Assembly: GCA_028288965.1 (NCBI GenBank)
Contig: JAQGHD010000008.1
Coordinates: 22,390 to 86,389 of the forward strand
Direction of reading: 5' to 3'
DNA length: 64,000 nt
From: Candidatus Saccharimonadota bacterium
GTDB lineage: Bacteria > Patescibacteriota > Saccharimonadia > Saccharimonadales > JAQGHD01
The translations under genes were made by a program, and so were the position numbers. The notes under the pieces are model-generated. The model searched no databases, had not been told where the DNA came from, and was given only the letters and a program-made list of their open reading frames with translations. Shown piece after piece: positions 29,530 through 62,836 of the stretch. Every line of letters begins with the position of its first letter. Positions within the stretch are counted from its first letter, which is position 1.

Positions 29530-29541
29530 CAGTCTCATCAG

Positions 29542-30210: not shown

Positions 30211-30303
30211 AATATTTATTATAGACGTGCCTAAAATAAGCGTGCAAGCATGAGCAAAATAAAAATGACCTCCAACTACGAAGGCCATAGTACTTATGCT
30301 TGA

Positions 30304-30362
30304 TAGCCCAAGTACATTCGGATTGGAACTCTATCTTTGCTGAATCAAGTAGATGGAGAGCT
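30304..30362 (-). repeat. island repeat copy E3 (core plus 5' extension)
   Basis: tagcccaagtacattcggattggaac plus ...agatggagagct. Begins 1 nt after the pilin stop at 30364. Confidence 0.7.
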
Positions 30363-30363
30363 A

Positions 30364-30981: not shown

Positions 30982-31005
30982 AAAGATTCCTTGATTATTA
31001 GCTTA

Positions 31006-31034
31006 AGCATAATTGAAGCCTGATAACTTTGCAA
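31006..31034 (-). promoter_or_regulatory. pilin promoter (TTGCAA-N17-TATGCT)
   Basis: Minus-strand TTGCAA (31034-31029), 17-nt spacer, TATGCT (31011-31006), followed by the conserved TAAGC. Confidence 0.55.
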
Positions 31035-31056
31035 TTTGACCAAGTGATAGTGGAAC

Positions 31057-31743: not shown

Positions 31744-31777
31744 TCTGAACGATTCCTTAGATTAAGTAATTATTTTA

Positions 31778-31806
31778 AGCATAAGCGTGGCTAGAGTAAA
31801 TTGCAA
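31778..31806 (-). promoter_or_regulatory. pilin promoter (TTGCAA-N17-TATGCT)
   Basis: Minus-strand TTGCAA (31806-31801), 17-nt spacer, TATGCT (31783-31778). Confidence 0.55.
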
Positions 31807-31833
31807 TAAAAATGACCTCCGGTGAAGGAGGTC
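31807..31833 (-). terminator. intrinsic terminator following repeat copy E4
   Basis: Minus-strand GACCTCC-ttcacc-GGAGGTC followed by ATTTTTA, abutting the -35 of the next promoter. Confidence 0.65.
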
Positions 31834-31845
31834 AAATATGCTTGA

Positions 31846-31918
31846 TAGCCCTGGTACATTCGAACTGGAACGTACTTCCTGGGGAGCTATCTCGTTGGCT
31901 AGAAATATCTAGAGGCAA
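31846..31918 (-). repeat. island repeat copy E4 (core plus 5' extension)
   Basis: tagccctggtacattcgaactggaac ... tctagaggcaa. The extension contains hairpin CTAGA-tatt-TCTAG (minus sense). Confidence 0.7.
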
Positions 31919-31955
31919 GTCAAAAGTAAGCTACTCTACCGGGCGGTAGTGGAAC

Positions 31956-32648
31956 CTAAATTACCTTAACTGTCTTAACAACTTGCTCGATTGTATCACT
32001 GACATTTTCTGCGCCAGACTGTACGGTGTAGCCAAATGTTAGTCTTGAGGCGCCTAATTGCACGCAGTACCCGTAAAACTTATCTCCCTTGACAAGACTT
32101 TGAGCGCCTGTATTAGTAGCAACATCACCGGATTCGACATCTGTATACACATCATTTCCACTGTCAGTTTTAAGAGCTAGTTTGTAGGCTGGTAACTCTG
32201 AACATTTGCCTGTATTTGATGAAGCGGCACCGTAGTCCATAAAGAAGCCGTATGTAAATTCACCCGGACCCGAATACGTTGAGTATTCTTTAACAACTGC
32301 CTTCTGACCAGCTTTGTACTTTATGTCGTCATTCTTGGCAAAAAAGCTATCATTGCTTTCCTGCTTTTTAGTAATCGTCCAGCCGTCAGCAAATCGAATT
32401 GAATAGTGAGGGGCCTTGTATTCCAGCCAACTATCAGACACTTTCTTTTCTGGTGCAGCCGTTTTGGTCTCGCTCTTTTTTGTCGATGTTTGAGAACTGA
32501 TTGTTGATTGTGATGCGTTGCTAAGGCTTTTGTTTGCGTCCTTATTTGATTTATATACATACCAGCCCACAAAACCAATTATGCCCACTATGACTAGGAT
32601 TAATAGCCCCTCAACTGCCGAGAAGCCCCTAGAATTTAACTTTTTCAT
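31956..32648 (-). CDS. type IV pilin-like protein
   Basis: MKKLNSRG|FSAVEGLLILVIVGIIGFVGWYVY. Confidence 0.75.
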   Translation of the reverse strand: MKKLNSRGFSAVEGLLILVIVGIIGFVGWYVYKSNKDANKSLSNASQSTISSQTSTKKSETKTAAPEKKVSDSWLEYKAPHYSIRFADGWTITKKQESNDSFFAKNDDIKYKAGQKAVVKEYSTYSGPGEFTYGFFMDYGAASSNTGKCSELPAYKLALKTDSGNDVYTDVESGDVATNTGAQSLVKGDKFYGYCVQLGASRLTFGYTVQSGAENVSDTIEQVVKTVKVI

Positions 32649-32671
32649 TTAAGTTCCTTTAAGTTAGCTTA

Positions 32672-32700
32672 AGCATAAGCGAAAAATAATCCCAAAGCAA
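32672..32700 (-). promoter_or_regulatory. pilin promoter (TTGCTT-N17-TATGCT)
   Basis: Minus-strand TTGCTT (32700-32695), 17-nt spacer, TATGCT (32677-32672). Confidence 0.5.
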
Positions 32701-32701
32701 T

Positions 32702-32727
32702 AAAAAAGACCCCTTGCAAAAGAGGTT
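32702..32727 (-). terminator. intrinsic terminator following repeat copy E5
   Basis: Minus-strand ACCTCTT-ttgc-AAGGGGT followed by CTTTTTTA. Confidence 0.6.
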
Positions 32728-32739
32728 GAATAGACTTGG

Positions 32740-32817
32740 TAGCCCAAATACATTCGAATTGGAACTTAATGCTTGCGGAGTTAAGCCGCTGGATGCAATC
32801 ATCTGGAGAGGCAACAG
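32740..32817 (-). repeat. island repeat copy E5 (full length, ~78 nt)
   Basis: Aligns over its full length with E6. Contains hairpin GATG-attg-CATC (minus sense) and the core ending GGGCTACCAAG. Confidence 0.75.
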
Positions 32818-32970
32818 TGTAGTCTTTATTCTTCCAATGTAATCGGTATGGCACTACTTTTTTCTTGTTGACACTGTAGTACATGACCACCGGTACTTCT
32901 TTGTTGATTTTCTCTCGTATAAAATTACTCCTTGTTGACTAACTTACAAACTTAGAATTTAATATGCCTT

Positions 32971-33309
32971 ATGGATATATTGAAACCTATGCAAGAACTT
33001 GAGGCACATTCTGCTCACATTGGAGCCATAGCTGATGCTGTTATTGCTGAAATAAATGCTGCTAGCAAAGATGAGCTACAAGCTCAAGTCGATGCGGTAC
33101 CTAATATAGGCAATGCGGCAAGTCACTTGGTTGATTACTACGCAGACGGTCTAGAGCCATTAAGCGATGAAGAACAGGGGCTCTGGAAAGATGCATTTAT
33201 GATTGGTTTACTTACTCGGCATTTATTATCTACAGAAGAAGTTCCAGTTCCCCCACCTGTACTAGGTTCGCCCCCTGAGCTACCTGACTTTTACGGTGAA
33301 GTCAACTAG
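32971..33309 (+). CDS. hypothetical acidic protein (112 aa)
   Basis: The only plus-strand ORF in the island; bracketed by repeat copies E5 and E6. Confidence 0.4.
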   Translation: MDILKPMQELEAHSAHIGAIADAVIAEINAASKDELQAQVDAVPNIGNAASHLVDYYADGLEPLSDEEQGLWKDAFMIGLLTRHLLSTEEVPVPPPVLGSPPELPDFYGEVN

Positions 33310-33374
33310 TATTCAGCCCACTTTACAGATTGATGTACATTGAAAAAGACTCCGAAGAGCCCTCTAAATCTTTG

Positions 33375-33451
33375 TAGCCCAAGTACATTCGAGTTGGAAC
33401 CTACTCTCGGCGGAGTTAAATCGCTGGATGCAATCATCTAGAGAGGCAACA
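33375..33451 (-). repeat. island repeat copy E6 (full length, ~77 nt)
   Basis: tagcccaagtacattcgagttggaac...ggatgcaatcatctagagaggcaaca. Lies ~45 nt after the stop of pilin 33494-34138. Confidence 0.75.
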
Positions 33452-33493
33452 GCGCTTTATTGCATGTGTTTCGCAGGACGTAATATTAATTAT

Positions 33494-34138
33494 CTATAAA
33501 GCCACAAAGCTGCTTGTGAGTGCTCCTACTGCATCCTTAGTTTGTTTCACAAGTGCCGACGAAGAACAATCAGATTGACCACTCCAGTAAATGTAATAGT
33601 AGTTGCCAACCTTTGAGTAGCTAGGGGGTGTGCTATTGCCAGCTTTGAAGTCCTGGCTAAGAAAAGCTTGAGCTGTTACTTCACCTCCTTCAGCAGGGAT
33701 TTTATCTGTTGGCAAGTAGCGTCCAATGTAGCCCCCACCAGCGTTTTGGGTATCTGACGCACCACTTCTCCCGATTCCGCAATAAGGGTCACTTACCGCT
33801 GTAAGCTGCGTTGAGGTAAAGTACGCATTGTTGGTTGGGTATGGTTTTGTGCCAATGGCATATCGAAGTGTCAAAGTTCCATCATATGGTGCTTTTACTC
33901 CCCATTCTTTTACCTCAAAATACTTAGTTGTTGGTTTTGCGGCAGTCTCAGATGCTGCCGAAGTTGATTTCTTTGTGGTACTTGCAGCTTGGTTTGTCGC
34001 AGCTGCGTTGTTGTAGCTGGTTGTTGTCTTTTTATTACTATTCCAAACATACCAGCCGATAAAACCAATGACGCTGACAATAACCAAAATTAATAAGCCT
34101 TCAACTGCGCTGAAGCCTTTTTGATTTATTTTTTTCAT
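33494..34138 (-). CDS. type IV pilin-like protein
   Basis: MKKINQKG|FSAVEGLLILVIVSVIGFIGWYVW. Start at 34138, because the predicted -10 (34169-34164) lies inside the longer ORF. Confidence 0.75.
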   Translation of the reverse strand: MKKINQKGFSAVEGLLILVIVSVIGFIGWYVWNSNKKTTTSYNNAAATNQAASTTKKSTSAASETAAKPTTKYFEVKEWGVKAPYDGTLTLRYAIGTKPYPTNNAYFTSTQLTAVSDPYCGIGRSGASDTQNAGGGYIGRYLPTDKIPAEGGEVTAQAFLSQDFKAGNSTPPSYSKVGNYYYIYWSGQSDCSSSALVKQTKDAVGALTSSFVAL

Positions 34139-34163
34139 AGAATCCTTGCTTAAATTTAGCTTA

Positions 34164-34192
34164 AGCATAATAGATGTTTAGTCGGGTTGCAA
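34164..34192 (-). promoter_or_regulatory. pilin promoter (TTGCAA-N17-TATGCT)
   Basis: Minus-strand TTGCAA (34192-34187), 17-nt spacer, TATGCT (34169-34164). Confidence 0.55.
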
Positions 34193-34292: not shown

Positions 34293-34367
34293 TGGTAGCG
34301 GGGGCGGGACTCGAACCCGCGACCTTGTGGTTATGAGCCACACGAGCTGCCACTGCTCTACCCCGCG
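34293..34367 (-). tRNA. tRNA-Met (CAU), initiator type
   Basis: 75 nt: CGCGGGG-TA-GAGC..GCTC-G-TGTGG-CTCATAA-CCACA-AGGTC-GCGGG-TTCGAGT-CCCGC-CCCCGCT-A-CCA. Position 1:72 is unpaired (C1/U72), as in bacterial initiators. Closely resembles E. coli tRNA-fMet as I recall it. CCA is encoded. Confidence 0.8.
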
Positions 34368-34978: not shown

Positions 34979-35054
34979 GGGGGCGTAGCTCATCGGTTAG
35001 AGCAGGCGGCTCATAACCGCTTGGTAGATGGTTAGATTCCATCCTCCCCCACCA
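34979..35054 (+). tRNA. tRNA with CAU anticodon, probably tRNA-Ile2 (lysidine-modified)
   Basis: 76-nt cloverleaf GGGGGCG..GGCGG-CTCATAA-CCGCT-TGGTA-GATGG-TTAGATT-CCATC-CTCCCCC-A-CCA. The GAGCAGGCGGCTCATAACCGCTTGGT segment resembles E. coli ileX as I recall it. Identity (Ile2 versus Met) is tentative. Confidence 0.7.
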
Positions 35055-41080: not shown

Positions 41081-41157
41081 GGCAGGGTAGCTCAGTTGGT
41101 TAGAGCACAGGACTCATAAGCCTGGGGTCGCGAGTTCAAATCTCGCCCCTGCTACCA
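41081..41157 (+). tRNA. tRNA-Met (CAU), elongator type
   Basis: 77 nt: GGCAGGG-TA-GCTCAGTTGGTTAGAGC-A-CAGGA-CTCATAA-GCCTG-GGGTC-GCGAG-TTCAAAT-CTCGC-CCCTGCT-A-CCA. The D-arm and variable loop match E. coli elongator tRNA-Met as I recall it. Confidence 0.8.
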
Positions 41158-41999: not shown

Positions 42000-42887
42000 A
42001 TGATCGATACGCTTGACCCAGGTACGTACGTGGTAGCCGTTTCTGGTGGAGTGGATTCCGTAAGTTTGCTGCATGTGTTGGCCCAGCAGCCTCATCTCTC
42101 CCTGATTGTGGCCCATTTTGATCATGGTATTCGCCCGGATTCTCGGGCTGATCGAGAGCATGTGCAATTGCTAGCCAGTAACTGGGGCCTGCCATTTGTT
42201 TACGACGAGGTGCATCTGGGTCCAGCTACCAGTGAAGAAGCAGCCCGCAAAGCTCGCTACACGTTTTTGGAGCGAGTCCGCCAGGCTAGTCGCGCCCAAG
42301 CTATTATTACGGCGCATCATCAAGATGATGTGCTGGAAACAGCCATTCATAATATGCGGCGCGGTACTGGTCGGCGCGGTCTTACTTCACTAGCCAGTCA
42401 CGGCCCACTACATCGGCCGCTGTTGCAGGTTCCCAAATGGAAAATTATCGATTACGCCCTGGAGCATAAACTGGATTGGCATGAAGATAGCACCAATGCT
42501 GATACTCGCTACGCCCGCAACTATATTCGTCATAATATTGTTAAAAAATTAAACTACGAGCAACGTGCTCAATTGCTTAAACTAATTCAGGCCACCCTGC
42601 AACTGAACACAGAGATTGAGCAATTACTCATCAATCAACTGCACGTCCAACCGGCGCCCAATAGGCTGGCACGACACTGGTTTATCATGCTGCCGCACGC
42701 TGTGGCCAAAGAAGCTTTGGCGCAATGGCTCAGACAAAACGGGATACGCAGCTACGATAAACCAACGCTTGAGCGGCTAGTTATTGCCGGTAAAACAGCG
42801 TTACCTGGTAAAATAGTAGACGTTAACGGTGAGTATCAACTGCTTGTAGAAAAGAGTATATTAGCACTCAAGCACCGAGACCGCTAG
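42000..42887 (+). CDS. tilS: tRNA(Ile)-lysidine synthase
   Basis: PP-loop VAVSGGVDSVSLL, AHHQDD block. Conserved position upstream of ftsH. Confidence 0.85.
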   Translation: MIDTLDPGTYVVAVSGGVDSVSLLHVLAQQPHLSLIVAHFDHGIRPDSRADREHVQLLASNWGLPFVYDEVHLGPATSEEAARKARYTFLERVRQASRAQAIITAHHQDDVLETAIHNMRRGTGRRGLTSLASHGPLHRPLLQVPKWKIIDYALEHKLDWHEDSTNADTRYARNYIRHNIVKKLNYEQRAQLLKLIQATLQLNTEIEQLLINQLHVQPAPNRLARHWFIMLPHAVAKEALAQWLRQNGIRSYDKPTLERLVIAGKTALPGKIVDVNGEYQLLVEKSILALKHRDR

Positions 42888-45025: not shown

Positions 45026-45088
45026 AAGTAGTAAAGATGGGTGATTTAAAGGGCGGTTTTGCAGCCGGTAGTTTATAATTACTGCTTA

Positions 45089-46681
45089 ATGGATCGCTTC
45101 ATAAAACGCGCTAATACTCGAATTTCACTTGGTGGCGCGGCAGCTCTACTTATATCAACCTCTATGTTCGGGCAGATCCTGGGGTTTTTACGTATCAAGT
45201 TGGTGAATGCTAACTTTTCAGCCCTGGGGCCACAGAGCACCGACGCTTATTTTGCGGCCTTTAAAATTCCTGATTTCTTTTTCTTTACTCTAGCAGCCGG
45301 AGCCTTAGGTGTGGCCTTTATGCCGATTTTGTCGGATCACATTCATAGAGGTGATAGAAAAGGCGTCTGGGATCTGACCTCTAGCCTGATGAATCTCTTG
45401 ACTATTATTATGGCGGGCGTAGCCGTCATTATTTTGATTTTTGCGCCGCAACTGCTGCACTACATTGTGGCCCCAAAATTGACTCCCGAGCAATTGCATA
45501 ACGCCGCCAGCATTATGCGGCTGATTGCTCTTAATCCTTTGCTCTTTACGCTATCGGGCATTTTAGTCAGTGTGCAACAAACATACGGGCGGTTCTTTTT
45601 TTATGCCATAGCCCCACTGTTTTATAACGCTTCAATCATTATGAGCATCTTTGTCTTCAAAAATAACTGGGGACTGATTGGTCTTGGGCTGGGTGCCTTG
45701 ATTGGTGCCCTGCTGCAACTGACAATTGCATTCTTAGGCATTGCCGGCATGGGCTTTAAATATTGGCCAAAAATTAATTGGCGTAGTAGTGACTTCCGAC
45801 TGATATTAAAGCAACTACCGCCTCGATCAGTGGATCAAGGAATTGATTCTATTAACAGTATTGTGGAGACCAACTTTGCCCGTCGGCTGGGGGAGGGAAA
45901 TATCAGTTTTTACGAAAATGCCTATATGCTGCACACAGCGCCAATTCTGCTTATTGGTACCAGTGTGTCCACGGCAGCCTTTCCGCGCCTAACGGCCAGA
46001 TTGTCCCAAAACAGGCCGGACTTATTTCGTAAAGAATTCTTACAGGTGCTGCGGGCTATGGTTTGGATCATTATGCCGGTGGTGGTCATCAGCTACTTTG
46101 CCCGTGGTTATTTGGCGCGTTTGATTTTTGCTAAAGATGCACCAGAAATTGCTCTGATTTTTGGCTACCTCACAGGTGCCATATTTTTTAGGACCATTTA
46201 CGCCATTATCTCGCGTTATTTTTATGCCCATAAAGATACCAAAACGCCATTGTTTGTATCACTGTTTGCAATTGGACTGAATATTCTACTGGCTTGGCGA
46301 TTGTCCCGTTCCACCTCGTACGGGGTGGCGGGCTTGGCGCTAGCGGAATCCTTCGTGGCTTTAGGCGAAGTGGTTATACTATCGCTCGTAATGGTCGTCC
46401 GCGATCCCAAGCTACTGGATAAAACCTTTTGGGGTGGCATTGTCAGGATCTTATCGGTCACCGGCTTTAGCGTCCTGGCCGCCTTTATTATGGTTTCTAT
46501 CTTGCCGCTCAATATTGCTGATCGCGGCTTTGTAACACTTGGTACTAAGCTGACGCTCATAGCGGGGGTTACTATTTTGGTTCATGTAAGTATCTCGTAC
46601 TTATTTGATCTAGAAGAGGCTCGGCCAATCATTGATAAACTCAAGCGAATTATTCTTCGGCCTATTAAGGTTCAGTTGTAA
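45089..46681 (+). CDS. murJ: lipid II flippase MurJ (MviN)
   Basis: About 14 TM. N-terminal FGQILGFLRIKLVNANFSALGPQSTDAYFAAFKIPDFFF is typical of MurJ. Confidence 0.85.
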   Translation: MDRFIKRANTRISLGGAAALLISTSMFGQILGFLRIKLVNANFSALGPQSTDAYFAAFKIPDFFFFTLAAGALGVAFMPILSDHIHRGDRKGVWDLTSSLMNLLTIIMAGVAVIILIFAPQLLHYIVAPKLTPEQLHNAASIMRLIALNPLLFTLSGILVSVQQTYGRFFFYAIAPLFYNASIIMSIFVFKNNWGLIGLGLGALIGALLQLTIAFLGIAGMGFKYWPKINWRSSDFRLILKQLPPRSVDQGIDSINSIVETNFARRLGEGNISFYENAYMLHTAPILLIGTSVSTAAFPRLTARLSQNRPDLFRKEFLQVLRAMVWIIMPVVVISYFARGYLARLIFAKDAPEIALIFGYLTGAIFFRTIYAIISRYFYAHKDTKTPLFVSLFAIGLNILLAWRLSRSTSYGVAGLALAESFVALGEVVILSLVMVVRDPKLLDKTFWGGIVRILSVTGFSVLAAFIMVSILPLNIADRGFVTLGTKLTLIAGVTILVHVSISYLFDLEEARPIIDKLKRIILRPIKVQL

Positions 46682-46740: not shown

Positions 46741-47052
46741 ATGAGGAAAAACCAAGCCGGGTTCAGTGTTGTAGAAGGACTACTGGTGCTGATTATTATT
46801 GCCATTATTGGGTTTATTGGTTGGTATGTACTTAAGGCCAAAAACAAAACCACCACGAGTTATAACAATACCAATTCCAGCACATCTGCCGTAGCCTCTA
46901 AAGCTACCTCGTCGAGCGCTACAGATAACACAAGTTTGGATAAAGATTTATCAGATGCCAACGGCAGCCTAACCCAGGGCAACCAGAACCTGAGTTCGGC
47001 AGATGCGTCCCTAAACGATCAGAGCCGTCAAGTAACGGTACCAACGGAGTAA
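46741..47052 (+). CDS. short type IV pilin-like protein
   Basis: MRKNQAG|FSVVEGLLVLIIIAIIGFIGWYV followed by an S/T/N-rich tail. Confidence 0.7.
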   Translation: MRKNQAGFSVVEGLLVLIIIAIIGFIGWYVLKAKNKTTTSYNNTNSSTSAVASKATSSSATDNTSLDKDLSDANGSLTQGNQNLSSADASLNDQSRQVTVPTE

Positions 47053-47056
47053 TGCC

Positions 47057-47782
47057 ATGAAAAAGAAGTTCTCCTCCAAAATCATATATATCAGCGCCGT
47101 GTTAGTTGGTTCAAGTTTGTTGGCCGCTCCAGCTTTAGCCGCAAGAGCAGCTACAGCCTCGAGCGATGCCGCTCTGACCACCGCTCAGCAGCAACGACTG
47201 GACAACATTAAAACTCGCGGCGCCAACGAAATTAATCGCCGGCTTACGGCACTCAATAATGTACTTGGCCGAATAAGCTCCGCTTCTAAATTATCTGCGG
47301 AGAATAAAGCCACGCTCACCACCGCCGTAAAAGATGAAGTGACCGGACTCACTACGCTTAAATCTAAATTAGCAGCCGACACCGCACTGGATGCAGCCAA
47401 AGCCGATGCCCAAAGCGTCATTAATGATTACCGAGTATATGCCTTGCTGCTTCCAAAAGTTTGGCTCCTACGAGCTGTAGATGCCGAGCAGGTCAGTGAG
47501 GACAAGTTGACAGCCCTAGCCACCAAGCTAAAAACTCGGATTGATGCCGCTAAGCCCCCAGTGCCTGATGCCCAAACTAAACTTGATGATATGAATGCTA
47601 AAATTGCCGCCGCCAAAACCATTACCACTAATCTAGAGGCAAAACTTTTGCCCTTGCAACCCACCGACTACAATAGCGATCACACGGTATTAAGTGGCTC
47701 GCTAGCCCAAATTAAGCAAGCTCACACTGACAACAAAGCTGCTTATGATGATGCCAAGGCTATTCGGGCGGCCTTAAAATAA
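47057..47782 (+). CDS. secreted coiled-coil protein
   Basis: Signal peptide ISAVLVGSSLLAAPALAARA. Helical repeats similar in style to 8318-8986. Confidence 0.5.
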   Translation: MKKKFSSKIIYISAVLVGSSLLAAPALAARAATASSDAALTTAQQQRLDNIKTRGANEINRRLTALNNVLGRISSASKLSAENKATLTTAVKDEVTGLTTLKSKLAADTALDAAKADAQSVINDYRVYALLLPKVWLLRAVDAEQVSEDKLTALATKLKTRIDAAKPPVPDAQTKLDDMNAKIAAAKTITTNLEAKLLPLQPTDYNSDHTVLSGSLAQIKQAHTDNKAAYDDAKAIRAALK

Positions 47783-47786: not shown

Positions 47787-48365
47787 TTAGATAATTCGCT
47801 GGTGAAGCAACAGTAAAATTTGCGGATAGTGACTGGTAAACAGCCAAATGTCTACGACTGCCAGTGCGGGCAAAACCAACCAGTTTTCGGCAAACTTACC
47901 AGTTGTTACCCGTAAGGCTTTTAGTGGCGGAAAACCGAATTTTATGGGGATGGGCAGCAGCCACGGCACACCTTCTTTAGTAAATGAATCCATAACCAGG
48001 TGCGATGTCATGCCAATCATAAAAGCCCACCATATGTAGCCGATGTTGGTATGCGGCATCAGCGGGTGCACAAAGCTCAACAGCATTTTAGACAAAAACC
48101 CAAACAGCGCCAGTCCTAGAACAGAGTGAGTTAAAAAGCGGTGGCCGCCCATAAGGTTATCAAAAAACTTGCCAAATAAACGGGTAATTGGTAAGTTGCG
48201 CCAAAACGGTGCCGTTGGCTGGTCGATATCTGGCGTAATGCCGCCAATTTGATTAGCCAGGATAGCAATAATAGCTGTGCTGGGGGAAATGGTCCCAAAG
48301 GGATGCAGCAGCACCACGACACCAAGCGCGGTAATGGCGGCTAAATCGTGAGTACGGGCGGTCAT
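47787..48365 (-). CDS. membrane-bound metal-dependent hydrolase (YdjM/DUF457-like)
   Basis: N-terminal THDLAAITALG, HRFLTHS and SHLVMDSFT His/Asp motifs in a polytopic protein. Confidence 0.55.
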   Translation of the reverse strand: MTARTHDLAAITALGVVVLLHPFGTISPSTAIIAILANQIGGITPDIDQPTAPFWRNLPITRLFGKFFDNLMGGHRFLTHSVLGLALFGFLSKMLLSFVHPLMPHTNIGYIWWAFMIGMTSHLVMDSFTKEGVPWLLPIPIKFGFPPLKALRVTTGKFAENWLVLPALAVVDIWLFTSHYPQILLLLHQRII

Positions 48366-48386: not shown

Positions 48387-48653
48387 TTATGGTTCGTGCT
48401 GGCGAAGTCGTCGACGCTGTCTTATAATTCGGCGGCGTTCCCGCTCGCTGGCACCGCCCCAGACGCCATGTTCAATGCGATTTTCTAAGGCGTATTCCAA
48501 GCACTGTTCTTGCACTGGGCAGGCTTGACAGGTTGCCTTCACAGCTTCCACGCCCAAGCCGTCAGATGGGAAATAGTCGTTCGGACCATCACCTCGACAT
48601 TTGGCTTTTTCCATCCATAATTCATCATCTGGGAAAATAGGTTCTGGTTCCAT
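48387..48653 (-). CDS. whiB: WhiB-like (Wbl) Fe-S transcription factor
   Basis: Cys pattern C-x22-C-x2-C-x5-C (KCRG...TCQACPVQEQC), G[VI]WGG turn (HGVWGG), basic C-terminal tail RRRIIRQRRRLRQ. Confidence 0.85.
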   Translation of the reverse strand: MEPEPIFPDDELWMEKAKCRGDGPNDYFPSDGLGVEAVKATCQACPVQEQCLEYALENRIEHGVWGGASERERRRIIRQRRRLRQHEP

Positions 48654-48748
48654 AGTAAATGTACACTACGCGTTTTCTATAATAATTGCAAGAAAAAGCA
48701 AACTAGCCCTTATCTTTACGTGTGTACCCCTGTATACTGTCAGATGAC

Positions 48749-50542
48749 ATGAACCAAAGTTTTATTCGAAATTTTTGTATTATTGCTCATATTGACCACG
48801 GCAAATCAACCCTGGCTGATAGGCTACTGGAGCTGACTGGCACCATCGAAAAGCGCAACATGCGGGCGCAGCTGCTGGACCGTATGGATTTGGAGCGCGA
48901 GAAGGGCATTACCATAAAGCTGGCACCAGTGCGCATGGATTACACCCAAGATGGTCAAACGTATCAGCTCAATCTTATTGACACGCCTGGACATGTGGAT
49001 TTTAGTTATGAAGTGTCGCGCAGCCTAGAGGCTTGCGAAGGCGCCGTCTTGGTGGTGGATGCCACCCAGGGCATTCAAGCTCAAACCCTGGCTAATGTGT
49101 ATTTGGCTATGGATGCCGACCTAAAAATCATACCGGTTATGAACAAAATTGATTTGCCGGCCGCCGACCCTGTAAAAGTTTCGGCCGAAATAGTCGGACT
49201 GTTGGGTTGCAAACCAGAAGACATCTTGCATATCTCGGCCAAGACCGGTCAAGGCGTTGAAGCCGTCTTGCAAGCCGTGATTGAGCAGGTGCCGGCGCCG
49301 AATGGTCACGCTGATCAGCCAGCCAGAGCGCTGATATTTGATAGTTATTACGATGATTACCGGGGCGTTATTTTGTACGTGCGCGCCAAAGATGGTCAGA
49401 TAGCTAAAAATGCTGGCATAACCATGCTGGCTACCAGCGCCCAAGGTATTGCTCTGGAAACCGGAGCGCTTAAGCCGGATATGAAAGCGCTGCCGGCCAT
49501 TCACACAGGCGAGATTGGCTACATTGTGACCAACCTAAAAAGCACTCGTCAGGCTCGGGTTGGCGATACCGTCACGCTCACCAGCCAGCCAGCCAAGCAA
49601 GCCCTGCCGGGGTATAAAGACATTCATCCGTTTGTCTATGCTGGCTTTTTCCCAGATAGCAACGAAAACTATCAATTGCTAAAAGACGCCATAGAAAAAC
49701 TTTCTCTAAGTGATTCGGCGCTACAGTATTCGCTAGAAAATTCTCCAGTCCTGGGCTTTGGTGTGCGGGTTGGTTTTTTGGGGCTGCTGCACATGGACAT
49801 TGTCCGCGAACGGCTAGAGCGGGAGTATGATCTTGAGCTGGTGGTGACCAATCCCTCTACGGATTACCAGATTACCCTACTCAATAACGAAGAAGTAGAC
49901 ATAAAAAGTGCTGCCGACTTGCCCGATCCTGCCAATATTAAAGAAATTCGTGAGCCATGGATAAAGGGCGAGGTAGTAGTCCCAAAGGATTACGTCGGCA
50001 ACGTCATTCAGCTTATCTCCGCTAAGCGTGGCTTGCAAAAGAACCTCAGCTACGTGGATGCCCAATTGGCAGTGTTGACTTTTGAAGCGCCGTTGGCCAA
50101 CCTGCTAACTGATTTTTATGATCAACTCAAGAGCGTCACCAGTGGCTACGGATCGTTTAATTACGAACTGGCCGGCTACCAGGCCGAGGATTTAGTAAAG
50201 CTAGATTTTTATGTGGCTGGTGAGCGCGTCGATGCCCTGAGCATTATGGTCCACCGCAGTGAATCGCAGCGCTTGGGTCGCGAAGTGGTAGAGAAACTCA
50301 AAGAAGTTATTCCACGCCAACAGTTCCAGGTAAGCTTGCAGGCAGCCATTGGTGGTAAGTTCATTGCCCGTGAAGACATTAGCGCTTTTAGAAAAGACGT
50401 TACCACTGGATTATATGGTGGTGATGTATCGCGTAAGAAAAAAGTGCTCGCCAAACAAGCCAAGGGTAAAAAACGGATGAAGCGCTTTGGCAAGGTAGAC
50501 ATTCCGGCCGACGCCTTTACGGTTATGCTCAAACGTGACTAG
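48749..50542 (+). CDS. lepA: elongation factor 4 (LepA)
   Basis: FCIIAHIDHGKSTLADRLL, DTPGHVDF, NKIDL, and the LepA-specific C-terminal domain. Confidence 0.95.
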   Translation: MNQSFIRNFCIIAHIDHGKSTLADRLLELTGTIEKRNMRAQLLDRMDLEREKGITIKLAPVRMDYTQDGQTYQLNLIDTPGHVDFSYEVSRSLEACEGAVLVVDATQGIQAQTLANVYLAMDADLKIIPVMNKIDLPAADPVKVSAEIVGLLGCKPEDILHISAKTGQGVEAVLQAVIEQVPAPNGHADQPARALIFDSYYDDYRGVILYVRAKDGQIAKNAGITMLATSAQGIALETGALKPDMKALPAIHTGEIGYIVTNLKSTRQARVGDTVTLTSQPAKQALPGYKDIHPFVYAGFFPDSNENYQLLKDAIEKLSLSDSALQYSLENSPVLGFGVRVGFLGLLHMDIVRERLEREYDLELVVTNPSTDYQITLLNNEEVDIKSAADLPDPANIKEIREPWIKGEVVVPKDYVGNVIQLISAKRGLQKNLSYVDAQLAVLTFEAPLANLLTDFYDQLKSVTSGYGSFNYELAGYQAEDLVKLDFYVAGERVDALSIMVHRSESQRLGREVVEKLKEVIPRQQFQVSLQAAIGGKFIAREDISAFRKDVTTGLYGGDVSRKKKVLAKQAKGKKRMKRFGKVDIPADAFTVMLKRD

Positions 50543-59057: not shown

Positions 59058-60065
59058 ATGACAGTATTGCCTGATACGCTCAAGCGATTAAAGGTTAGCT
59101 CAAGATTAGTAGTTAACCGGGCGCTGGCCCGTGGATGGGTGGTTGAGCCGTATGAATCTAACCCTTCAATTATGAAGCTTACCCTGCCAAGTCGTGCGCA
59201 GCCAATTCATATTTTTAGCGCCGCGCCGCCACATGCCAGTTATGTAGCCAGCAAAATTGCTCAAGACAAATTTATAACCAACAAGATTCTGGCGGATCGC
59301 GGTGTCCCAGTACCAGCAGAGCTATTACTTCACGCTGGCCACGACCTGCCCCAAGATGCCATAGACGCATTTTTAGCCGAACATAAGCGAATTATCGTTA
59401 AGCCCCTTGATGCCTCACACGGGAAGGGCATTACCACTGATATTACCGCTAAGGCCGCCCTCCGTAAGGCTATTAGTGTGGCTCAAAAACAAGCCAAGAC
59501 TGGTCGCGTTTTATTGCAGAATCATTTAGAGGGCCTTGATTTGCGCGTGTTATGCGTGGGCTACAAGTTTATCAGTGCGATTCACCGTACACCGGCACGA
59601 GTAATTGGTGATGGCCGGCACACGGTAGCCGAGCTTATTGACGTCACTAATGAAGATCGCGGCGAAAATTACAGCAAACGGCTCAACAAAATTCCCAGCA
59701 ATGAGGCCGAAGGTTACTTGGGCAAAAAGCGCTATAACTCAGTGCCCGCCAAGCAAGAAATAGTGCAAGTCTTAGGTGTGGCCAATGTAGGCAAGGGTGG
59801 TGAGCTGCAAAACGTTACCACCGAGGTGCCACAGTTCTTAATTGAACTATCTGAAGCTATTGCCAGAACACTCTTCTTGCCGGTCTGTGGAATTGACTTT
59901 TTAATTGCCAAACTTCCAACCAAGGACGTTACCAAGCAGCAATTACACCCGGTTGTTATAGAGGTGAACGAGACACCAATGCTCATGATGTATGAAGATA
60001 CAGAATCAGCCCTCCAAGATAGGGTGATCGACGCCTACCTTGATTTTATCGAAACCAGCGAATAG
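59058..60065 (+). CDS. ATP-grasp ligase resembling the N-terminal ATP-grasp module of cyanophycin synthetase
   Basis: IIVKPLDASHGKGI, DLRVLCVGYKFISAIHRTPARVIGDGRHTVAELID, GIDFL...VIEVNETP. No Mur-ligase-like second half. Confidence 0.7.
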   Translation: MTVLPDTLKRLKVSSRLVVNRALARGWVVEPYESNPSIMKLTLPSRAQPIHIFSAAPPHASYVASKIAQDKFITNKILADRGVPVPAELLLHAGHDLPQDAIDAFLAEHKRIIVKPLDASHGKGITTDITAKAALRKAISVAQKQAKTGRVLLQNHLEGLDLRVLCVGYKFISAIHRTPARVIGDGRHTVAELIDVTNEDRGENYSKRLNKIPSNEAEGYLGKKRYNSVPAKQEIVQVLGVANVGKGGELQNVTTEVPQFLIELSEAIARTLFLPVCGIDFLIAKLPTKDVTKQQLHPVVIEVNETPMLMMYEDTESALQDRVIDAYLDFIETSE

Positions 60066-60072
60066 TAAAGCT

Positions 60073-61479
60073 ATGACTATGGCAGAAGCTCTCGATACAA
60101 TTAACGCTACTGACCAATTGCCATTTGCTATGGCGGCCGAGGGCTTTACTCGTATTCCCGAGGCCAGACTCCAGGTATATGAATTCTTTGCCGGTGACCC
60201 CGTTCATCGTTACAAAGAACAAATTAGGGTGCTGCAAGATGCCTCACACGACTCCAACCCCATACTTGATTTATCCCCTCAAGTCGTAGGCGAGCTACAC
60301 AACAGCAGGCGTCGTTTAGCAAAGATTTTGGGCATAGTCGAGCAGAATGTTGAGGCTACTCCCCTTGAAGAATCAGCCATGTATGAATTATCGGCTCGCC
60401 GAGCTGCCGAAAATTATTACGTACTGCAGGCATACCGCGTGACAGATATGCCGGCTGAACATCCACGGCGAATACAGCACGCGGAACGCTTACATGCCAT
60501 GGGCGTAGAGTTATTTGGAGAACCAGATAAAACAGTGTTTGATTCGCTTATTTCCATGGAACGCCAAAAAGCTACCAATCTGCTAACCCATGGCGATCCA
60601 GCGGTTCGACAGTTAGCCCAAGAGTATGTTGATCTGTTGCCGGATGTTACTTCGCCCAATACGCCATATCTTCCAGAGCAGGCCACTGTAGATCATTATC
60701 ACAATTTAATTCTAGAAGTGTATGGAGGTATGCTCGAAGCAGCAATAGAACCAGATAAAGAAAACTACAAACCAGCACAAATGGTCCAGGCATTTAATAA
60801 GGCCCTAGATTATATAGGTGCCAGTGGGTGGTGTGCCGAACTGCGGCCAGGTGCCAATATAGTCAACGTCAATCATGAAGATAAAAAAGTGTATGTGGGT
60901 GCTGATCGCATCCCTGCTTCTGCTATGAGGATGAAAAAACTACTGTTACACGAGGTGGGGATACACGTCATGCGCCGAATTTTAGGCGAGCAGACAGCCA
61001 ATCCCTTACTTGGTGGTGTTGGTTTGAGCGGCAATGAAGCAACCGAAGAAGGTTTGGGCGTGGTAGTCGAGCAAATGCTGGACAGTAAAGCCCTGGTTAA
61101 AGGGGAGCAGCACTATATGAATATTGGGCTGTCACTTGGCCTTGATGGCCATCCCAGAGATTTTCGTGAGGTTTTTGAAATTGAATGGCGTAGAAAAGTG
61201 CTCGAGAAAGTCGAAGGTAATTCAAATCTAGATATTCAAGTAGTTATGAAAGCCTACCGAATTGCCTATAGTAATGTGGTTCGGGTCCGCCGTGGAACAC
61301 CTGCCGATGTCTCGGGCATTGCCTTTACTAAAGATCTTGCCTACTACAACGGCAATGGAGCAATCTGGAAGTTCTTAGAGCAAAAGCTGTTAACTAAGGA
61401 TGAATTTAAAAAGATTTTGACTGGCAAGCACAATTTTTTGCGCGCGGATCATCGAGACCTTGTTGACACGGCAGCTTAA
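60073..61479 (+). CDS. DUF1704 / MATCAP-like metallocarboxypeptidase (QEGLA-motif family)
   Basis: HExxxH zinc motif LLLHEVGIHVMRR and TEEGLGVVVEQ (cf. QEGLA). ATG 60073 preferred. Confidence 0.65.
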   Translation: MTMAEALDTINATDQLPFAMAAEGFTRIPEARLQVYEFFAGDPVHRYKEQIRVLQDASHDSNPILDLSPQVVGELHNSRRRLAKILGIVEQNVEATPLEESAMYELSARRAAENYYVLQAYRVTDMPAEHPRRIQHAERLHAMGVELFGEPDKTVFDSLISMERQKATNLLTHGDPAVRQLAQEYVDLLPDVTSPNTPYLPEQATVDHYHNLILEVYGGMLEAAIEPDKENYKPAQMVQAFNKALDYIGASGWCAELRPGANIVNVNHEDKKVYVGADRIPASAMRMKKLLLHEVGIHVMRRILGEQTANPLLGGVGLSGNEATEEGLGVVVEQMLDSKALVKGEQHYMNIGLSLGLDGHPRDFREVFEIEWRRKVLEKVEGNSNLDIQVVMKAYRIAYSNVVRVRRGTPADVSGIAFTKDLAYYNGNGAIWKFLEQKLLTKDEFKKILTGKHNFLRADHRDLVDTAA

Positions 61480-62705
61480 GCAGGCCTAGCCCCAGTAAGT
61501 ACTTTGGCATGGGTTTGCACAAAAGTAAGATCCTTTTGTAGTTGACGGGGATCTGTATGTATCAACATGGCAATAGCAGCAGCCTTATAGCCGGAGCTGG
61601 CTGGGCCAACTAGCCGGCCGGGTTTAACACGAACTTTTATGTAGTTAAAACTAGGCAACTGCTGCAAGGCGGCTAAGTTGGATATTTGCTGAAAAACCCC
61701 TTCCGACTCTGGAAAGAGTTCTATCACTGAGCAATTATTTTGATGGGTGGCAGCTAGGTTAAGCTTACGGTTGTAGGCTGTATCTATCATGGCTTGCTCC
61801 AGGTTAATACCGTGGGCCACTTCATACATGTGTGTGCGATAGCCGCCAATTCGGGCGCCAATTTCAATAATTTTTGGACCACTTGGAGTTAGGAACAATT
61901 CTATGTGCAGTGGCGTGCTGGTAAGACCTAGGGCTTTGCCGCCTTTTGCCGCCACTGTCAATATGGCTTTTTGGTCACTAGCCTTTAGGCGCGAGGGTAG
62001 GCTACGAGTAAAAAGGTAATTATCATTACGGCCTATATCTTGAGCCGTTACCAGATCGACTATCTTTGGGATAAGCTGTGGCCGCCCTTGGCTATCCGCA
62101 AATCCAGCCACGGTATGCAGGCTGCCTACCAGGCATTCCTCAATTAAGAGTTTAGGCTCCCGGGGAACATGAAACTTGCTATACAGCTGTTTTACACTGC
62201 TCTTGGCGTGTTGGAAATTAGCCTGTAGCTGCTCTATAGAATCGCTCTTGCTGACCAGTAAACTCTTTACCAAATTAGCCGGTTTTAAGATAACAGGGAA
62301 GCTATGCGCCTGCATAAAGTCTAAAATGTCTTGCCAATTGTCTACCTGCTTAAACTCTGGAGTAATACTGGGGTCATATGCCAAAAACTTCTGACGCATT
62401 AAGACTTTATCGGTGCTGCTTAGGGCGGCATCAGGGGTTATACCAGGTACGGAAAAATATCGCGACAACTGTGCTGCTGGCCAAACATAATTTTCATATG
62501 TCCAGACAATTGCCTCAACCGGCTGGGTAAAGTTTTTTAAGCTGGACTGTATCGTGGTTTCGTCGGTAAAATCTACCAACCTGGTAGGCGCTTGGGGGGC
62601 CTTTTTGGTGGGACGCTGGGCATCTAAAAATATGCCAAAGGCTTCGTCATTTTGGCGCAAATACTCATAAAAACTAGAGTGTGCTTTGCCAACTATCCAC
62701 AGCAT
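61476..62705 (-). CDS. ATP-grasp domain protein (carboxylate-amine ligase of unknown specificity)
   Basis: FPVILKPANLVKSLLVSK, LLIEECLVGSLHTV, PLHIELFLTPSGPKIIEIGARIGG. Convergent with the previous gene; both stops share the CTTAAG palindrome. Confidence 0.65.
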   Translation of the reverse strand: MLWIVGKAHSSFYEYLRQNDEAFGIFLDAQRPTKKAPQAPTRLVDFTDETTIQSSLKNFTQPVEAIVWTYENYVWPAAQLSRYFSVPGITPDAALSSTDKVLMRQKFLAYDPSITPEFKQVDNWQDILDFMQAHSFPVILKPANLVKSLLVSKSDSIEQLQANFQHAKSSVKQLYSKFHVPREPKLLIEECLVGSLHTVAGFADSQGRPQLIPKIVDLVTAQDIGRNDNYLFTRSLPSRLKASDQKAILTVAAKGGKALGLTSTPLHIELFLTPSGPKIIEIGARIGGYRTHMYEVAHGINLEQAMIDTAYNRKLNLAATHQNNCSVIELFPESEGVFQQISNLAALQQLPSFNYIKVRVKPGRLVGPASSGYKAAAIAMLIHTDPRQLQKDLTFVQTHAKVLTGARPA

Positions 62706-62836
62706 GTCCTTATTTATAAAGAAGATGACTGTAAAAAACAATCAGGCGCCTATAATGCAAGGTGTGATAGGTAATATTTCCATTGCAAATAAATATAAAA
62801 AATGTTATAATTTACGTTTAACAAAGTGATATTTTT

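What the first reader, a model, noticed from the sequence alone, without database searches (positions are those of the whole stretch)
48387..48653. Canonical WhiB-like (Wbl) regulator in a CPR-like genome
Seen: an 88-aa protein has the full Wbl signature. It has four Cys in C-x22-C-x2-C-x5-C, the GVWGG turn and an Arg-rich C-terminal tail. Established: Wbl proteins are regarded as a hallmark of Actinobacteria and their phages, where they bind the sigma-A region 4. Inference: if the lineage assignment (Saccharibacteria-like) is right, this may be a horizontal acquisition from an actinobacterial host. Cultivated Saccharibacteria are epibionts of Actinomyces/Schaalia and relatives. Alternatively it is evidence that Wbl is older and broader than assumed. 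Local G+C does not look obviously foreign by eye.
Basis: partly seen in the sequence, partly recalled or inferred. Interest (0 to 1): 0.55.

Follow-up and report, generated by a model that had tools for sequence, protein, structure and literature searches.

The report
WhiB-like regulator in a Saccharibacteria chromosome
A small iron-sulfur transcription regulator that textbooks call exclusive to Actinobacteria and their phages sits, intact and long-resident, in the chromosome of an ultra-small Saccharibacteria (CPR) bacterium; it was almost certainly picked up from Actinobacteria, and the sigma factor it would normally dock on has lost the usual docking residues in this lineage.

Summary
ORF 48387-48653 (-) encodes an 88-aa protein with C19-x22-C42-x2-C45-x5-C51, GVWGG and a nine-Arg tail. 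It scores 80.3 bits on Pfam WhiB (cut-off 23.6). Its best solved relative is Streptomyces WhiB (8DY7).

The lineage call is also correct. The flanking tilS-ftsH-murJ / lepA-hrcA-grpE-dnaK-dnaJ genes are 54-86% identical and syntenic to long Saccharibacteria contigs.

The gene lies in a 2-kb accessory block between murJ and lepA. These two genes abut in two close relatives, and none of five relatives' loci has any of the block's four genes.

The protein belongs to a large 'RIEHGVWGG' Wbl subfamily whose other members are high-G+C Actinomycetota (up to 73% core identity). At least three other Saccharibacteria contigs carry members, two of them just upstream of polA. The four never group together (0/100 bootstraps). 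All four have host-like GC3 (0.38-0.46 against 0.855 in Actinomycetota).

My reading is old horizontal acquisition from Actinomycetota, more than once, kept under purifying selection.

One complication: all 120 Saccharibacteria primary sigmas examined have K-H where Mtb SigA has the essential H516-P517 docking pair. Canonical sigma docking is therefore unproven. NCBI already names the protein WhiB-family, but I found no paper that discusses it.

The parts
48387..48653 (-). whiB-like (Wbl) gene, 88 aa. Cluster ligands are C19, C42, C45 and C51. The aromatic patch is W13, Y27, F28 and W65. The GVWGG turn is at 63-67 and the Arg-rich tail at 71-84.
   Evidence: ORF and translation. Pfam Whib 80.3 bits. 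Ungapped alignment to Streptomyces WhiB 8dy7_H, 68.9 bits. All 33 invariant subfamily columns are kept. The predicted four helices are 9-16, 35-41, 49-57 and 70-86.
47787..48365 (-). ydjM-family inner-membrane protein gene, 21 nt downstream of whiB on the same strand. It is a probable operon partner (inferred from spacing only).
   Evidence: Pfam YdjM 79.7 bits. Gap sequence. No homolog in any of the 100 comparison loci.
48654..48748 (.). 95-bp divergent intergenic region between whiB (-) and lepA (+), presumed to hold both promoters. No element was identified.
   Evidence: Sequence. The consensus promoter scan was at chance level and found nothing for the minus strand. The lepA start at 48749 is inferred from the 597-aa NCBI product.
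46741..47052 (+). Pilin-like gene (prepilin N-methylation motif), the first gene of the accessory block. It is a paralog of four genes at 30364-34168.
   Evidence: Pfam N_methyl, 19.6 bits, below the 21.2 cut-off. 43-53% identity to the window's own paralogs.
47057..47782 (+). 241-aa predicted secreted protein with no family match, the second gene of the accessory block.
   Evidence: ORF. No Pfam hit. No homolog in the comparison loci.
45059..46681 (+). murJ, the left edge of the conserved frame. In relatives L081, L082 and L083 it abuts lepA.
   Evidence: 59-70% identity to MurJ-family genes of L081-L084 and L095, which carry Pfam MurJ.
48749..50542 (+). lepA, the right edge of the conserved frame and the taxonomic anchor.
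   Evidence: Pfam GTP_EFTU, LepA_C and EFG_C. 81-84% identity to Saccharimonadales and Patescibacteria LepA. 83-84% to L081-L084 and L095.

Best explanation
This is a genuine, functional Wbl gene on a genuine Saccharibacteria (Saccharimonadales-type) chromosome. It belongs to a distinct Wbl subfamily (signature FFPSDG-GV...CLEYAL-x-RIEHGVWGG-x-SERERRRI). The closest characterised protein is Streptomyces WhiB / Mtb WhiB2.

Its ancestor was acquired horizontally from an Actinomycetota donor. That happened long enough ago for synonymous sites to reach the recipient's composition. The gene landed in a variable slot between murJ and lepA. Other Saccharibacteria acquired related copies separately: at least one other insertion lies upstream of polA, and a different WhiB2-like gene occurs in a further genome.

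Likely mechanism (inferred, not shown): C19, C42, C45 and C51 hold an O2/NO-sensitive [4Fe-4S] cluster. The holo-protein presents the aromatic patch W13/Y27/F28/W65 to region 4 of the primary sigma factor in RNA polymerase. The Arg-rich C-terminal helix touches DNA just upstream of the -35 element, so transcription of a regulon responds to redox or cluster state. Because Saccharibacteria sigma has K-H instead of H-P at the docking site, this docking step must be adapted or replaced.
For: Family:
- Pfam Whib 80.3 bits against a cut-off of 23.6.
- PDB ranking is WhiB 8dy7 68.9 bits, then WhiB4 57, WhiB1 52.5, WhiB3 and WhiB7 about 36, with identical Cys spacing to WhiB.
- Only Wbl structures match the model, probability 0.87-0.99.

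Lineage:
- LepA 81-84% to proteins named Saccharimonadales or Patescibacteria.
- tilS, ftsH, murJ, lepA, hrcA, grpE, dnaK and dnaJ are syntenic and 54-86% identical to L081-L084 and L095.
- Window GC is 0.48, like Saccharibacteria loci (0.43-0.50) and unlike the 77 Actinomycetota loci (median 0.68, minimum 0.60).

Accessory status:
- murJ abuts lepA in L081, L082 and L083, and none of the four block genes occurs in the relatives' loci.

Actinomycetota origin:
- The nearest relatives reach 73% core identity and are Actinomycetes or Acidimicrobiia on contigs up to 5.9 Mb, including cultured Aquihabitans.
- Saccharibacteria copies are 54-59% identical to each other but 69-77% to Actinomycetota. 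Monophyly was found in 0/100 replicates and there are no shared derived residues.
- All phage and plasmid Wbls in the reference collections come from actinobacterial hosts.

Residence and selection:
- GC3 is 0.45 (0.38-0.46 in all four Saccharibacteria copies) against a median of 0.855 and a minimum of 0.63 in 77 Actinomycetota homologs.
- Despite that, all 33 invariant subfamily positions are retained.
- The aromatic patch is kept. It is invariant in the subfamily: WM 120/120, FF or YF 120/120, W 120/120. PMC13013590 shows it is required for sigma binding and cluster stability.
Against: - No Fe-S binding, sigma binding or DNA binding has been shown for this protein.
- The sigma docking pair H516-P517, whose H516A mutation abolishes binding of all Mtb and tested phage Wbls, is K-H in all 120 Saccharibacteria primary sigmas. 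This includes the sigma encoded 0.6 kb from the L007 Wbl.
- The window organism's own rpoD could not be retrieved.
- No WhiA, suf/isc or sigma genes were found among the 52 window ORFs scanned against Pfam.
- The tree rests on 70 columns and neighbour-joining. The window protein's exact sister group is unresolved, and fast evolution in Saccharibacteria could mimic polyphyly.
- L007 and L064 share the polA-upstream position, so not every copy is an independent gain.
- The structure model is only moderate (pLDDT 64, TM about 0.44).
Confidence: 0.72

Rival explanations
1. One ancient acquisition (or vertical descent from a common ancestor with Actinomycetota), followed by relocation, divergence and frequent loss within Saccharibacteria.
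For: - All four copies are fully ameliorated.
- L007 and L064 share the same position immediately upstream of polA, so at least some inheritance within Saccharibacteria is vertical.
- If Saccharibacteria branches are long, copy-to-copy identity (54-59%) can fall below copy-to-Actinomycetota identity (69-77%) even under monophyly.
- Only 70 alignment columns were available.
Against: - Monophyly was found in 0/100 bootstraps and no two copies were ever sisters.
- There are no Saccharibacteria-specific shared residues.
- L007 shares a run of derived states with Aquihabitans (sisters in 61/100), while the window shares different ones with the P0002-P0005 Actinomycetes group.
- The copies occupy three different genomic contexts.
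- The slots are empty in two of five lepA-region relatives, with no Wbl in any of the five, and in five of five further rpoD-polA regions.
- The subfamily is nested inside the much larger actinobacterial Wbl radiation and excludes WhiB, WhiB4 and WhiB1 in 97/100 replicates.
Confidence: 0.15
2. The Wbl fold and cluster are retained, but the protein does not work through the organism's primary sigma factor. It might act as a stand-alone redox or NO sensor or thiol-disulfide protein, bind another RNA polymerase surface or an alternative sigma, or bind DNA through its Arg tail alone.
For: - All 120 Saccharibacteria primary sigmas have K-H at the positions of H516-P517, in an ungapped register. H516A abolishes Wbl binding in every case tested in PMC13013590.
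- Conservation of the aromatic patch can be explained by its role in cluster stability alone.
- The gene is probably co-transcribed with a membrane protein, ydjM, rather than with transcription genes.
Against: - A His is still present one residue later and could be accommodated.
- Every Wbl tested so far, including divergent phage ones, binds sigma region 4.
- The L007 copy lies 0.6 kb from rpoD.
- All 33 invariant subfamily positions are retained, not only the Cys residues and the patch.
Confidence: 0.2
3. Artefact: an actinobacterial fragment misassembled or mis-binned into a Saccharibacteria contig.
For: The source is a MAG.
Against: - The gene is flanked on both sides, within one 64-kb window, by Saccharibacteria backbone genes.
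- Its GC3 of 0.45 matches the host and is far below the lowest Actinomycetota homolog at 0.63.
- No sequence among 5.8 billion clusters exceeds about 73% core identity, so there is no candidate contaminant.
- Three other Saccharibacteria contigs, up to 289 kb, show the same thing, and one of them carries an 83%-identical lepA.
Confidence: 0.02
4. The Wbl is aimed at the host. Like the Wbls of actinophages, it would mimic a host regulator and dock on the actinobacterial host's sigma-A (which does have H-P) after transfer from the epibiont.
For: - The protein keeps the full actinobacterial-type sigma-docking surface while its own sigma lacks the H-P pair.
- Cultivated Saccharibacteria parasitise Actinobacteria (abstracts).
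- Phage Wbls that bind host sigma-A are documented.
Against: - There is no signal peptide or recognisable secretion signal, and no secretion genes are adjacent.
- An oxygen-labile Fe-S protein is a poor candidate for export.
- No protein transfer from Saccharibacteria into hosts is established in anything examined here.
- The host of this organism is unknown.
Confidence: 0.03

Closest known systems
Streptomyces WhiB / Mycobacterium tuberculosis WhiB2 (structure 8DY7/8DY9: S. venezuelae RNAP-sigmaHrdB-WhiA-WhiB open complex)
   Same: It is the best solved-structure match (68.9 bits, E 3.7e-18). The alignment over residues 9-78 has one 1-residue gap, ahead of the first Cys. The C-x22-C-x2-C-x5-C spacing is identical, as are CLEYAL, the G[VI]WGG turn and the SERERRR tail. 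The protein is monomeric, about 87 aa, with four helices.
   Different: It does not group with WhiB in the tree: the RIEH clade excludes it in 97/100 replicates. The loop before the turn is NRIEHGVWGG, not NDERFGIWGG, and the motif after Cys1 is FPSDGxGV, not FPEKGGST. No WhiA partner was found in the window. The organism is Saccharibacteria and its sigma lacks H-P.
'RIEHGVWGG' Wbl subfamily of Actinomycetes and Acidimicrobiia (unnamed; e.g. MCU1430581.1, Aquihabitans daechungensis chromosome NZ_CP172265.1 near 3.906 Mb)
   Same: It is a true subfamily member. It shows 58-65% full-length and up to 73% core identity, and all 33 invariant positions are shared, including W13, M14, R20, G21, F28, P29 and the whole E70-R75 run.
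   Different: The Actinomycetota copies sit in 60-72% G+C genomes with GC3 about 0.86, often beside a second, WhiB2-type gene or an ECF sigma/anti-sigma pair. The window copy has GC3 0.45, Y instead of F at aromatic-patch position 2, and a Saccharibacteria context.
Mtb WhiB1:sigmaA region 4 complex (6ONO) and the aromatic-patch model of Wbl-sigma docking (PMC13013590)
   Same: The four aromatic-patch positions align as W13, Y27, F28 and W65 to W3, F17, F18 and W60 of WhiB1. 6ONO is the top Foldseek hit.
   Different: WhiB1 has a 5-residue longer loop (C-x27-C). The docking pair H516-P517 of sigmaA corresponds to K-H in Saccharibacteria sigma.
Actinophage and actinobacterial plasmid Wbls
   Same: They are the same family, and they are the known case of Wbl genes moving horizontally and acting on a sigma factor.
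   Different: They are at most 41-49% identical, so none is a near relative or plausible recent vector. No phage or plasmid genes lie next to the window gene.

Membership tests
Wbl / WhiB-like (Pfam PF02467) | Profile match above the curated threshold | tested here: met
   80.3 bits against a cut-off of 23.6, E 1.5e-22, profile positions 1-64 of 65. NCBIfam has no model that hits.
Wbl / WhiB-like (Pfam PF02467) | Four invariant Cys in C-Xn-C-X2-C-X5-C | tested here: met
   C19, C42, C45 and C51. They align to the cluster ligands of WhiB, WhiB1 and WhiB4.
Wbl / WhiB-like (Pfam PF02467) | G[V/I]WGG beta-turn followed by a basic C-terminal segment | tested here: met
   GVWGG at 63-67 and nine Arg in residues 71-84. 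The predicted turn lies between helices 49-57 and 70-86.
Wbl / WhiB-like (Pfam PF02467) | Aromatic patch AP1-4 for sigma region 4 binding (PMC13013590) | tested here: met
   W13, Y27, F28 and W65 by alignment to WhiB1 W3, F17, F18 and W60. The patch is invariant in the subfamily.
Wbl / WhiB-like (Pfam PF02467) | Four-helix fold around the cluster pocket | tested here: inconclusive
   The AF2 model has four helices in the right order but a mean pLDDT of 64. Foldseek finds only Wbl structures (probability 0.87-0.99), with TM about 0.44 and E of 7e-3 or worse.
Wbl / WhiB-like (Pfam PF02467) | Binds a [4Fe-4S] cluster | not testable with these tools
   This needs anaerobic purification with UV-vis, EPR or native mass spectrometry.
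Wbl / WhiB-like (Pfam PF02467) | Partner: primary sigma region 4 with the H516-P517 docking pair | tested here: not met
   This was tested on relatives, not on the window organism. All 120 Saccharibacteria primary sigmas end KLRKHKDAKKLYEYLS. The alignment to Mtb SigA 466-527 is ungapped, which puts K at 516 and H at 517. The window's own rpoD is not in the window.
Wbl / WhiB-like (Pfam PF02467) | Confined to Actinobacteria and actinophages (a descriptive rule in the literature, not a structural criterion) | tested here: not met
   The backbone is Saccharibacteria. Further Saccharibacteria copies are L005, L007, L064 and L081.
WhiB / WhiB2 subclass | Clusters with Streptomyces WhiB / Mtb WhiB2 in phylogeny | tested here: not met
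   The clade that holds the window protein excludes the WhiB reference in 97/100 NJ bootstraps. True WhiB2-type paralogs (GEKFGIWGG) coexist with RIEH-type genes in Acidimicrobiia loci.
WhiB / WhiB2 subclass | Works with the partner WhiA | tested here: inconclusive
   No WhiA domains were found in the 52 window ORFs scanned. Only 64 kb of the genome was available.

The most novel reading that the evidence does not exclude
Saccharibacteria have repeatedly captured Wbl regulators from Actinomycetota and kept them under selection, even though their own primary sigma has lost the near-universal H-P docking pair. This implies one of two things. Either there is a re-engineered Wbl-sigma interface, which would be a natural experiment in rewiring an Fe-S transcription factor to a new sigma surface. 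Or the Wbl is used against the actinobacterial host's sigma-A in the way actinophage Wbls are. On either reading, Wbl genes would be molecular fossils that record which Actinomycetota lineages particular Saccharibacteria have lived on.
Probability: 0.12. Interest if true: 0.75.

Novelty: new member of a known kind. Interest (0 to 1): 0.45.

Why it matters
- Reviews and a 2026 structural paper still state that Wbl proteins occur exclusively in Actinobacteria and their phages (PMC6282962, PMC13013590). Metagenomic studies use whiB as a marker to call phages 'actinophages' (10.1101/2023.05.30.542503). Chromosomal, ameliorated and conserved Wbl genes in Saccharibacteria show the rule is not absolute, and the marker is not fully specific.
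- The genes are candidate traces of past gene flow from Actinomycetota into epibiotic CPR bacteria. Here the likely donors are Acidimicrobiia and environmental Actinomycetes, which may help predict hosts for uncultured Saccharibacteria.
- An intact aromatic patch combined with a sigma that lacks H-P gives a sharp, cheap biochemical test of how plastic the Wbl-sigma interface is.

Tried and rejected
- **Source contig.** I tried to fetch it through the exact WhiB protein, to reach the 23 kb outside the window and the organism's own rpoD. It is not on record.
- **Conserved whiB-lepA or whiB-ydjM synteny.** None was found in 80 GTDB loci.
- **Mobile-element scars.** Only short chance repeats occur around the block. 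There is no integrase, tRNA or phage gene nearby.
- **Promoter and terminator scan.** Hits were at the shuffled-sequence expectation and none served whiB. A by-eye TTGCAA-17-TAGTGT candidate fails the scan's criteria, so I dropped it.
- **Phage or plasmid vector.** IMG/VR hits are 41-46% identical, and INPHARED and PLSDB hits are below 50%.
- **My own first inference** of four independent acquisitions was weakened. L007 and L064 both proved to sit directly upstream of polA. I now claim at least two to three insertion events.
- **One foreign island.** I rejected the idea that the 2-kb block is a single foreign island, because its pilin-like gene is a paralog of the window's own family.
- **Second sigma in the polA slot (L093).** I checked whether it keeps H-P as a possible alternative partner. 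It does not.
- **NCBIfam** gave no hit.
- **AF2** gave only a moderate model.

Full report
**Observation.** The minus-strand ORF 48387..48653 encodes 88 aa. Its Cys residues are at 19, 42, 45 and 51 (C-x22-C-x2-C-x5-C). GVWGG lies at 63-67 and nine Arg lie between 71 and 84. It matches Pfam PF02467 (Whib) at 80.3 bits against a curated cut-off of 23.6, covering 64 of 65 profile positions. NCBIfam has no matching model. The identical protein is already in NCBI nr as 'MAG: putative WhiB family transcriptional regulator [Candidatus Saccharibacteria bacterium]' on an 87,474-bp contig. The description is accurate and not a chance pattern.

**Which Wbl.** Against solved structures, the best match is Streptomyces venezuelae WhiB in the RNAP-WhiA-WhiB complexes 8DY7 and 8DY9 (68.9 bits). 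The Cys spacing is identical, and the only gap in the alignment is one residue ahead of the first Cys. WhiB4 (57), WhiB1 (52.5), WhiB3 and WhiB7 (about 36) follow. All 120 best database hits share a signature, W-M-x4-C-R-G...FFPSDGxGV...CLEYALxxRIEHGVWGGASERERRRILRRRR. The window protein keeps all 33 invariant columns of a 42-sequence alignment of this group. In a neighbour-joining tree of 82 representatives over 70 columns, the clade that holds it excludes the WhiB, WhiB4 and WhiB1 references in 97/100 bootstraps. It therefore belongs to a distinct, unnamed 'RIEH' subfamily whose closest characterised protein is WhiB/WhiB2. An AlphaFold2 model is only moderate (mean pLDDT 64). It has four helices at 9-16, 35-41, 49-57 and 70-86, with the GVWGG turn between the third and fourth, as in Wbl structures. 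Foldseek against the PDB returns only Wbl proteins (WhiB1, WhiB, WhiB3) at probability 0.87-0.99, with TM about 0.44.

**Whose genome.** The adjacent LepA is 81-84% identical to more than 100 proteins. Nearly all of those that carry a name are called Saccharimonadales, Saccharibacteria or Patescibacteria; two carry other labels that look wrong. On long Saccharibacteria contigs (435 kb, 150 kb, 289 kb) the order tilS-ftsH-murJ-lepA-...-hrcA-grpE-dnaK-dnaJ is conserved. The window has the same genes in the same order at 54-86% identity. Window G+C is 0.48, as in Saccharibacteria loci (0.43-0.50). The 77 Actinomycetota loci that carry RIEH-type Wbls have a median of 0.68 and a minimum of 0.60. 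Gene content also fits a reduced, epibiotic-type genome. It includes five pilin-like paralogs, a zwf-pgl-gnd cluster and many ORFs with no family match. The lineage call is therefore right on the evidence of the contig itself.

**Where the gene sits.** In L081, L082 and L083, murJ abuts lepA with a gap of about 40 bp. In the window, about 2 kb lies between them with four extra genes:
- a pilin-like gene (46741-47052);
- a 241-aa secreted protein (47057-47782);
- ydjM (47787-48365, minus strand);
- whiB, 21 nt upstream of ydjM on the same strand, so probably an operon by spacing only.

None of the four has a homolog in the relatives' loci. The pilin-like gene is a paralog of four genes at 30-34 kb in the same window. 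The block is therefore a native variable region rather than one imported island. No flanking repeats or mobile-element genes are present. The promoter scan was at chance level.

**Origin.** A scan of one genome per GTDB species returned 400 relatives. Of the best 80, 77 are Actinomycetota by composition; four of these carry other titles (Bifidobacterium, Acidobacteriota) that look mislabelled. Most are Acidimicrobiia and uncultured Actinomycetes on contigs up to 5.9 Mb, and they include cultured Aquihabitans daechungensis. The other 3 are Saccharibacteria: L005, L007 and L064.

L064's contig also carries a LepA 83% identical to the window's. L007's neighbouring primary sigma is 82-100% identical to 119 database sigmas; those that carry a name are mostly Saccharimonadales or Patescibacteria. 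A 435-kb Saccharibacteria contig carries a different, WhiB2-like 220-aa Wbl.

The four RIEH-type Saccharibacteria proteins are 54-59% identical to one another, but each is 69-77% identical to some Actinomycetota protein. They were never monophyletic, and no two were ever sisters, in 100 bootstraps. They share no derived residues. L007 pairs with Aquihabitans in 61/100 replicates and shares YPP, GVVAAR, ICEEC and ILK with it. The window instead shares CRG, GLGVEA and GGASER with the P0002-P0005 Actinomycetes group.

Context tempers a claim of four independent gains. L007 and L064 both have the gene directly upstream of polA, inside the frame dnaG-rpoD-kinase-[slot]-polA, so they may be orthologs. 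That slot holds no Wbl in five other Saccharibacteria contigs. The window and L005 are in other contexts. I conclude there were at least two to three insertion events, plus the separate WhiB2-like gene.

Known phage and plasmid Wbls are all from actinobacterial hosts and are below 50% identical. No vector can be named.

**Age and selection.** The window gene has GC3 of 0.45, about 1 sd below the window's own genes (0.52 +/- 0.063). The four Saccharibacteria copies have GC3 of 0.38-0.46, while 77 Actinomycetota homologs have a median of 0.855 and a minimum of 0.63. If the donors resembled today's carriers, synonymous sites have fully re-equilibrated, yet every invariant residue is kept. That is the signature of an old, functional resident gene. 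It also excludes contamination or chimerism.

**Mechanism.** By homology, C19, C42, C45 and C51 should hold a [4Fe-4S] cluster. PMC13013590 shows that all seven Mtb Wbls and three phage Wbls dock on sigma-A region 4 at the H516-P517 pair. They do so through an aromatic patch (W3, F17, F18 and W60 of WhiB1), and H516A abolishes binding. The window protein has W13, Y27, F28 and W65 at these positions, and the patch is invariant in the subfamily.

There is no rpoD in the window, and the rest of the contig could not be fetched. However, all 120 Saccharibacteria primary sigmas retrieved end in KLRKHKDAKKLYEYLS, with single-residue variants in 24 of them, none at the K-H pair. This includes the sigma encoded 0.6 kb from the L007 Wbl. 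HMMER aligns this tail without gaps to Mtb SigA 466-527 and to sigmas of Firmicutes and others that read KLRHPSRS. H516 is therefore K, and P517 is H.

The canonical docking pair is thus absent in register across the lineage, whether or not a Wbl is present. Three outcomes are possible:
- the displaced His is accommodated;
- the interface has been rebuilt;
- the protein works through another partner.

This is the main unknown, and it can be tested directly. No WhiA, Fe-S assembly or sigma genes were found among the 52 window ORFs scanned against Pfam.

**Literature and novelty.** Full-text searches combining WhiB with Saccharibacteria, Patescibacteria, candidate phyla radiation or TM7 found no paper that reports a Wbl in these bacteria. 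The hits concern the host Schaalia's own whiB or actinophages. Reviews and a 2026 paper state that the family is exclusive to Actinobacteria and actinophages. One study uses whiB to label phages as actinophages. The protein is nevertheless already named WhiB-family in NCBI, and it is a textbook member by sequence. I rate it a new member of a known kind, in an unexpected phylum, with a mechanistic twist at the sigma interface. Interest is moderate.

**Limits.**
- The tree uses 70 columns and neighbour-joining.
- The placement of the window protein within the subfamily is unresolved.
- The survey of Saccharibacteria is a lower bound: 3 of the best 80 among 400 relatives.
- The sigma result is inferred for the window organism from relatives.
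- There are no expression or biochemical data.

Noticed in passing
L007:2618-3781 and proteins P0241-P0360: All 120 Saccharibacteria primary sigma factors examined end in a nearly invariant KLRKHKDAKKLYEYLS. The sigmas of Actinobacteria, Firmicutes and others shown in the alignments read KLRHPSRS. Many activators touch this C-terminal patch of region 4, so the change may matter well beyond Wbl.
   Followed up: partly
window 27736-34168 (-) and 46741-47052 (+): A low-G+C stretch (0.41-0.45) holds seven consecutive minus-strand ORFs without Pfam matches. Four of them (30364, 31057, 31956, 33494) are paralogous pilin-like proteins with prepilin-type N-termini. A fifth paralog sits in the murJ-lepA slot next to the Wbl operon.
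   Followed up: partly
window 34293-34367 (-), 34979-35054 (+), 41081-41157 (+); tilS 42000-42887: Three tRNA genes with a CAT anticodon lie within 7 kb, and they are the only tRNAs in the window. A tilS (PP-loop) gene is nearby, so one of them is probably tRNA-Ile2 rather than tRNA-Met.
   Followed up: no
L081:1-500 (-): A different Wbl lies about 5.5 kb from lepA on a 435-kb Saccharibacteria contig. It is 220 aa, with a long N-terminal extension and a WhiB2-like core (…CHKVDPAVFFPARGESEKPAKKICA…). Saccharibacteria therefore hold more than one Wbl subfamily. The locus end cuts the gene.
   Followed up: partly
L007:4343-4612, L064 about 9983-10240, and L093, L094, L098, L099, L100: The interval between the rpoD-linked kinase and polA is a variable slot in Saccharibacteria. 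It holds whiB in L007 and mgtE plus whiB in L064. In L093 it holds a P-type ATPase plus a 274-aa second sigma, and in L094 a SpoIIE phosphatase. In L098 and L099 it holds a small unknown gene.
   Followed up: yes
L002, L025, L032, L034, L049, L052, L074: Acidimicrobiia (Ilumatobacteraceae-type) loci carry an RIEH-type Wbl and a WhiB2-type Wbl (…GEKFGIWGGLSERERRRL) about 0.8 kb apart on opposite strands. This is a conserved divergent Wbl pair.
   Followed up: no
L032, L071, L043, L053; proteins P0186, P0235, P0256, P0324: Several MAG labels look wrong. Contigs titled 'uncultured Bifidobacterium' and 'Acidobacteriota' have about 0.69-0.70 G+C and Ilumatobacteraceae-type Wbls. Saccharimonadales-like LepA and RpoD proteins are named Verrucomicrobiae, Nevskiaceae or Nomurabacteria.
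   Followed up: no
window 59058-62741: A cluster of two ATP-grasp ligase-like genes (59058-60065; 61476-62741, minus strand) flanks a protein with a MATCAP-type carboxypeptidase domain (60040-61479). This could be a peptide-ligation or modification module.
   Followed up: no
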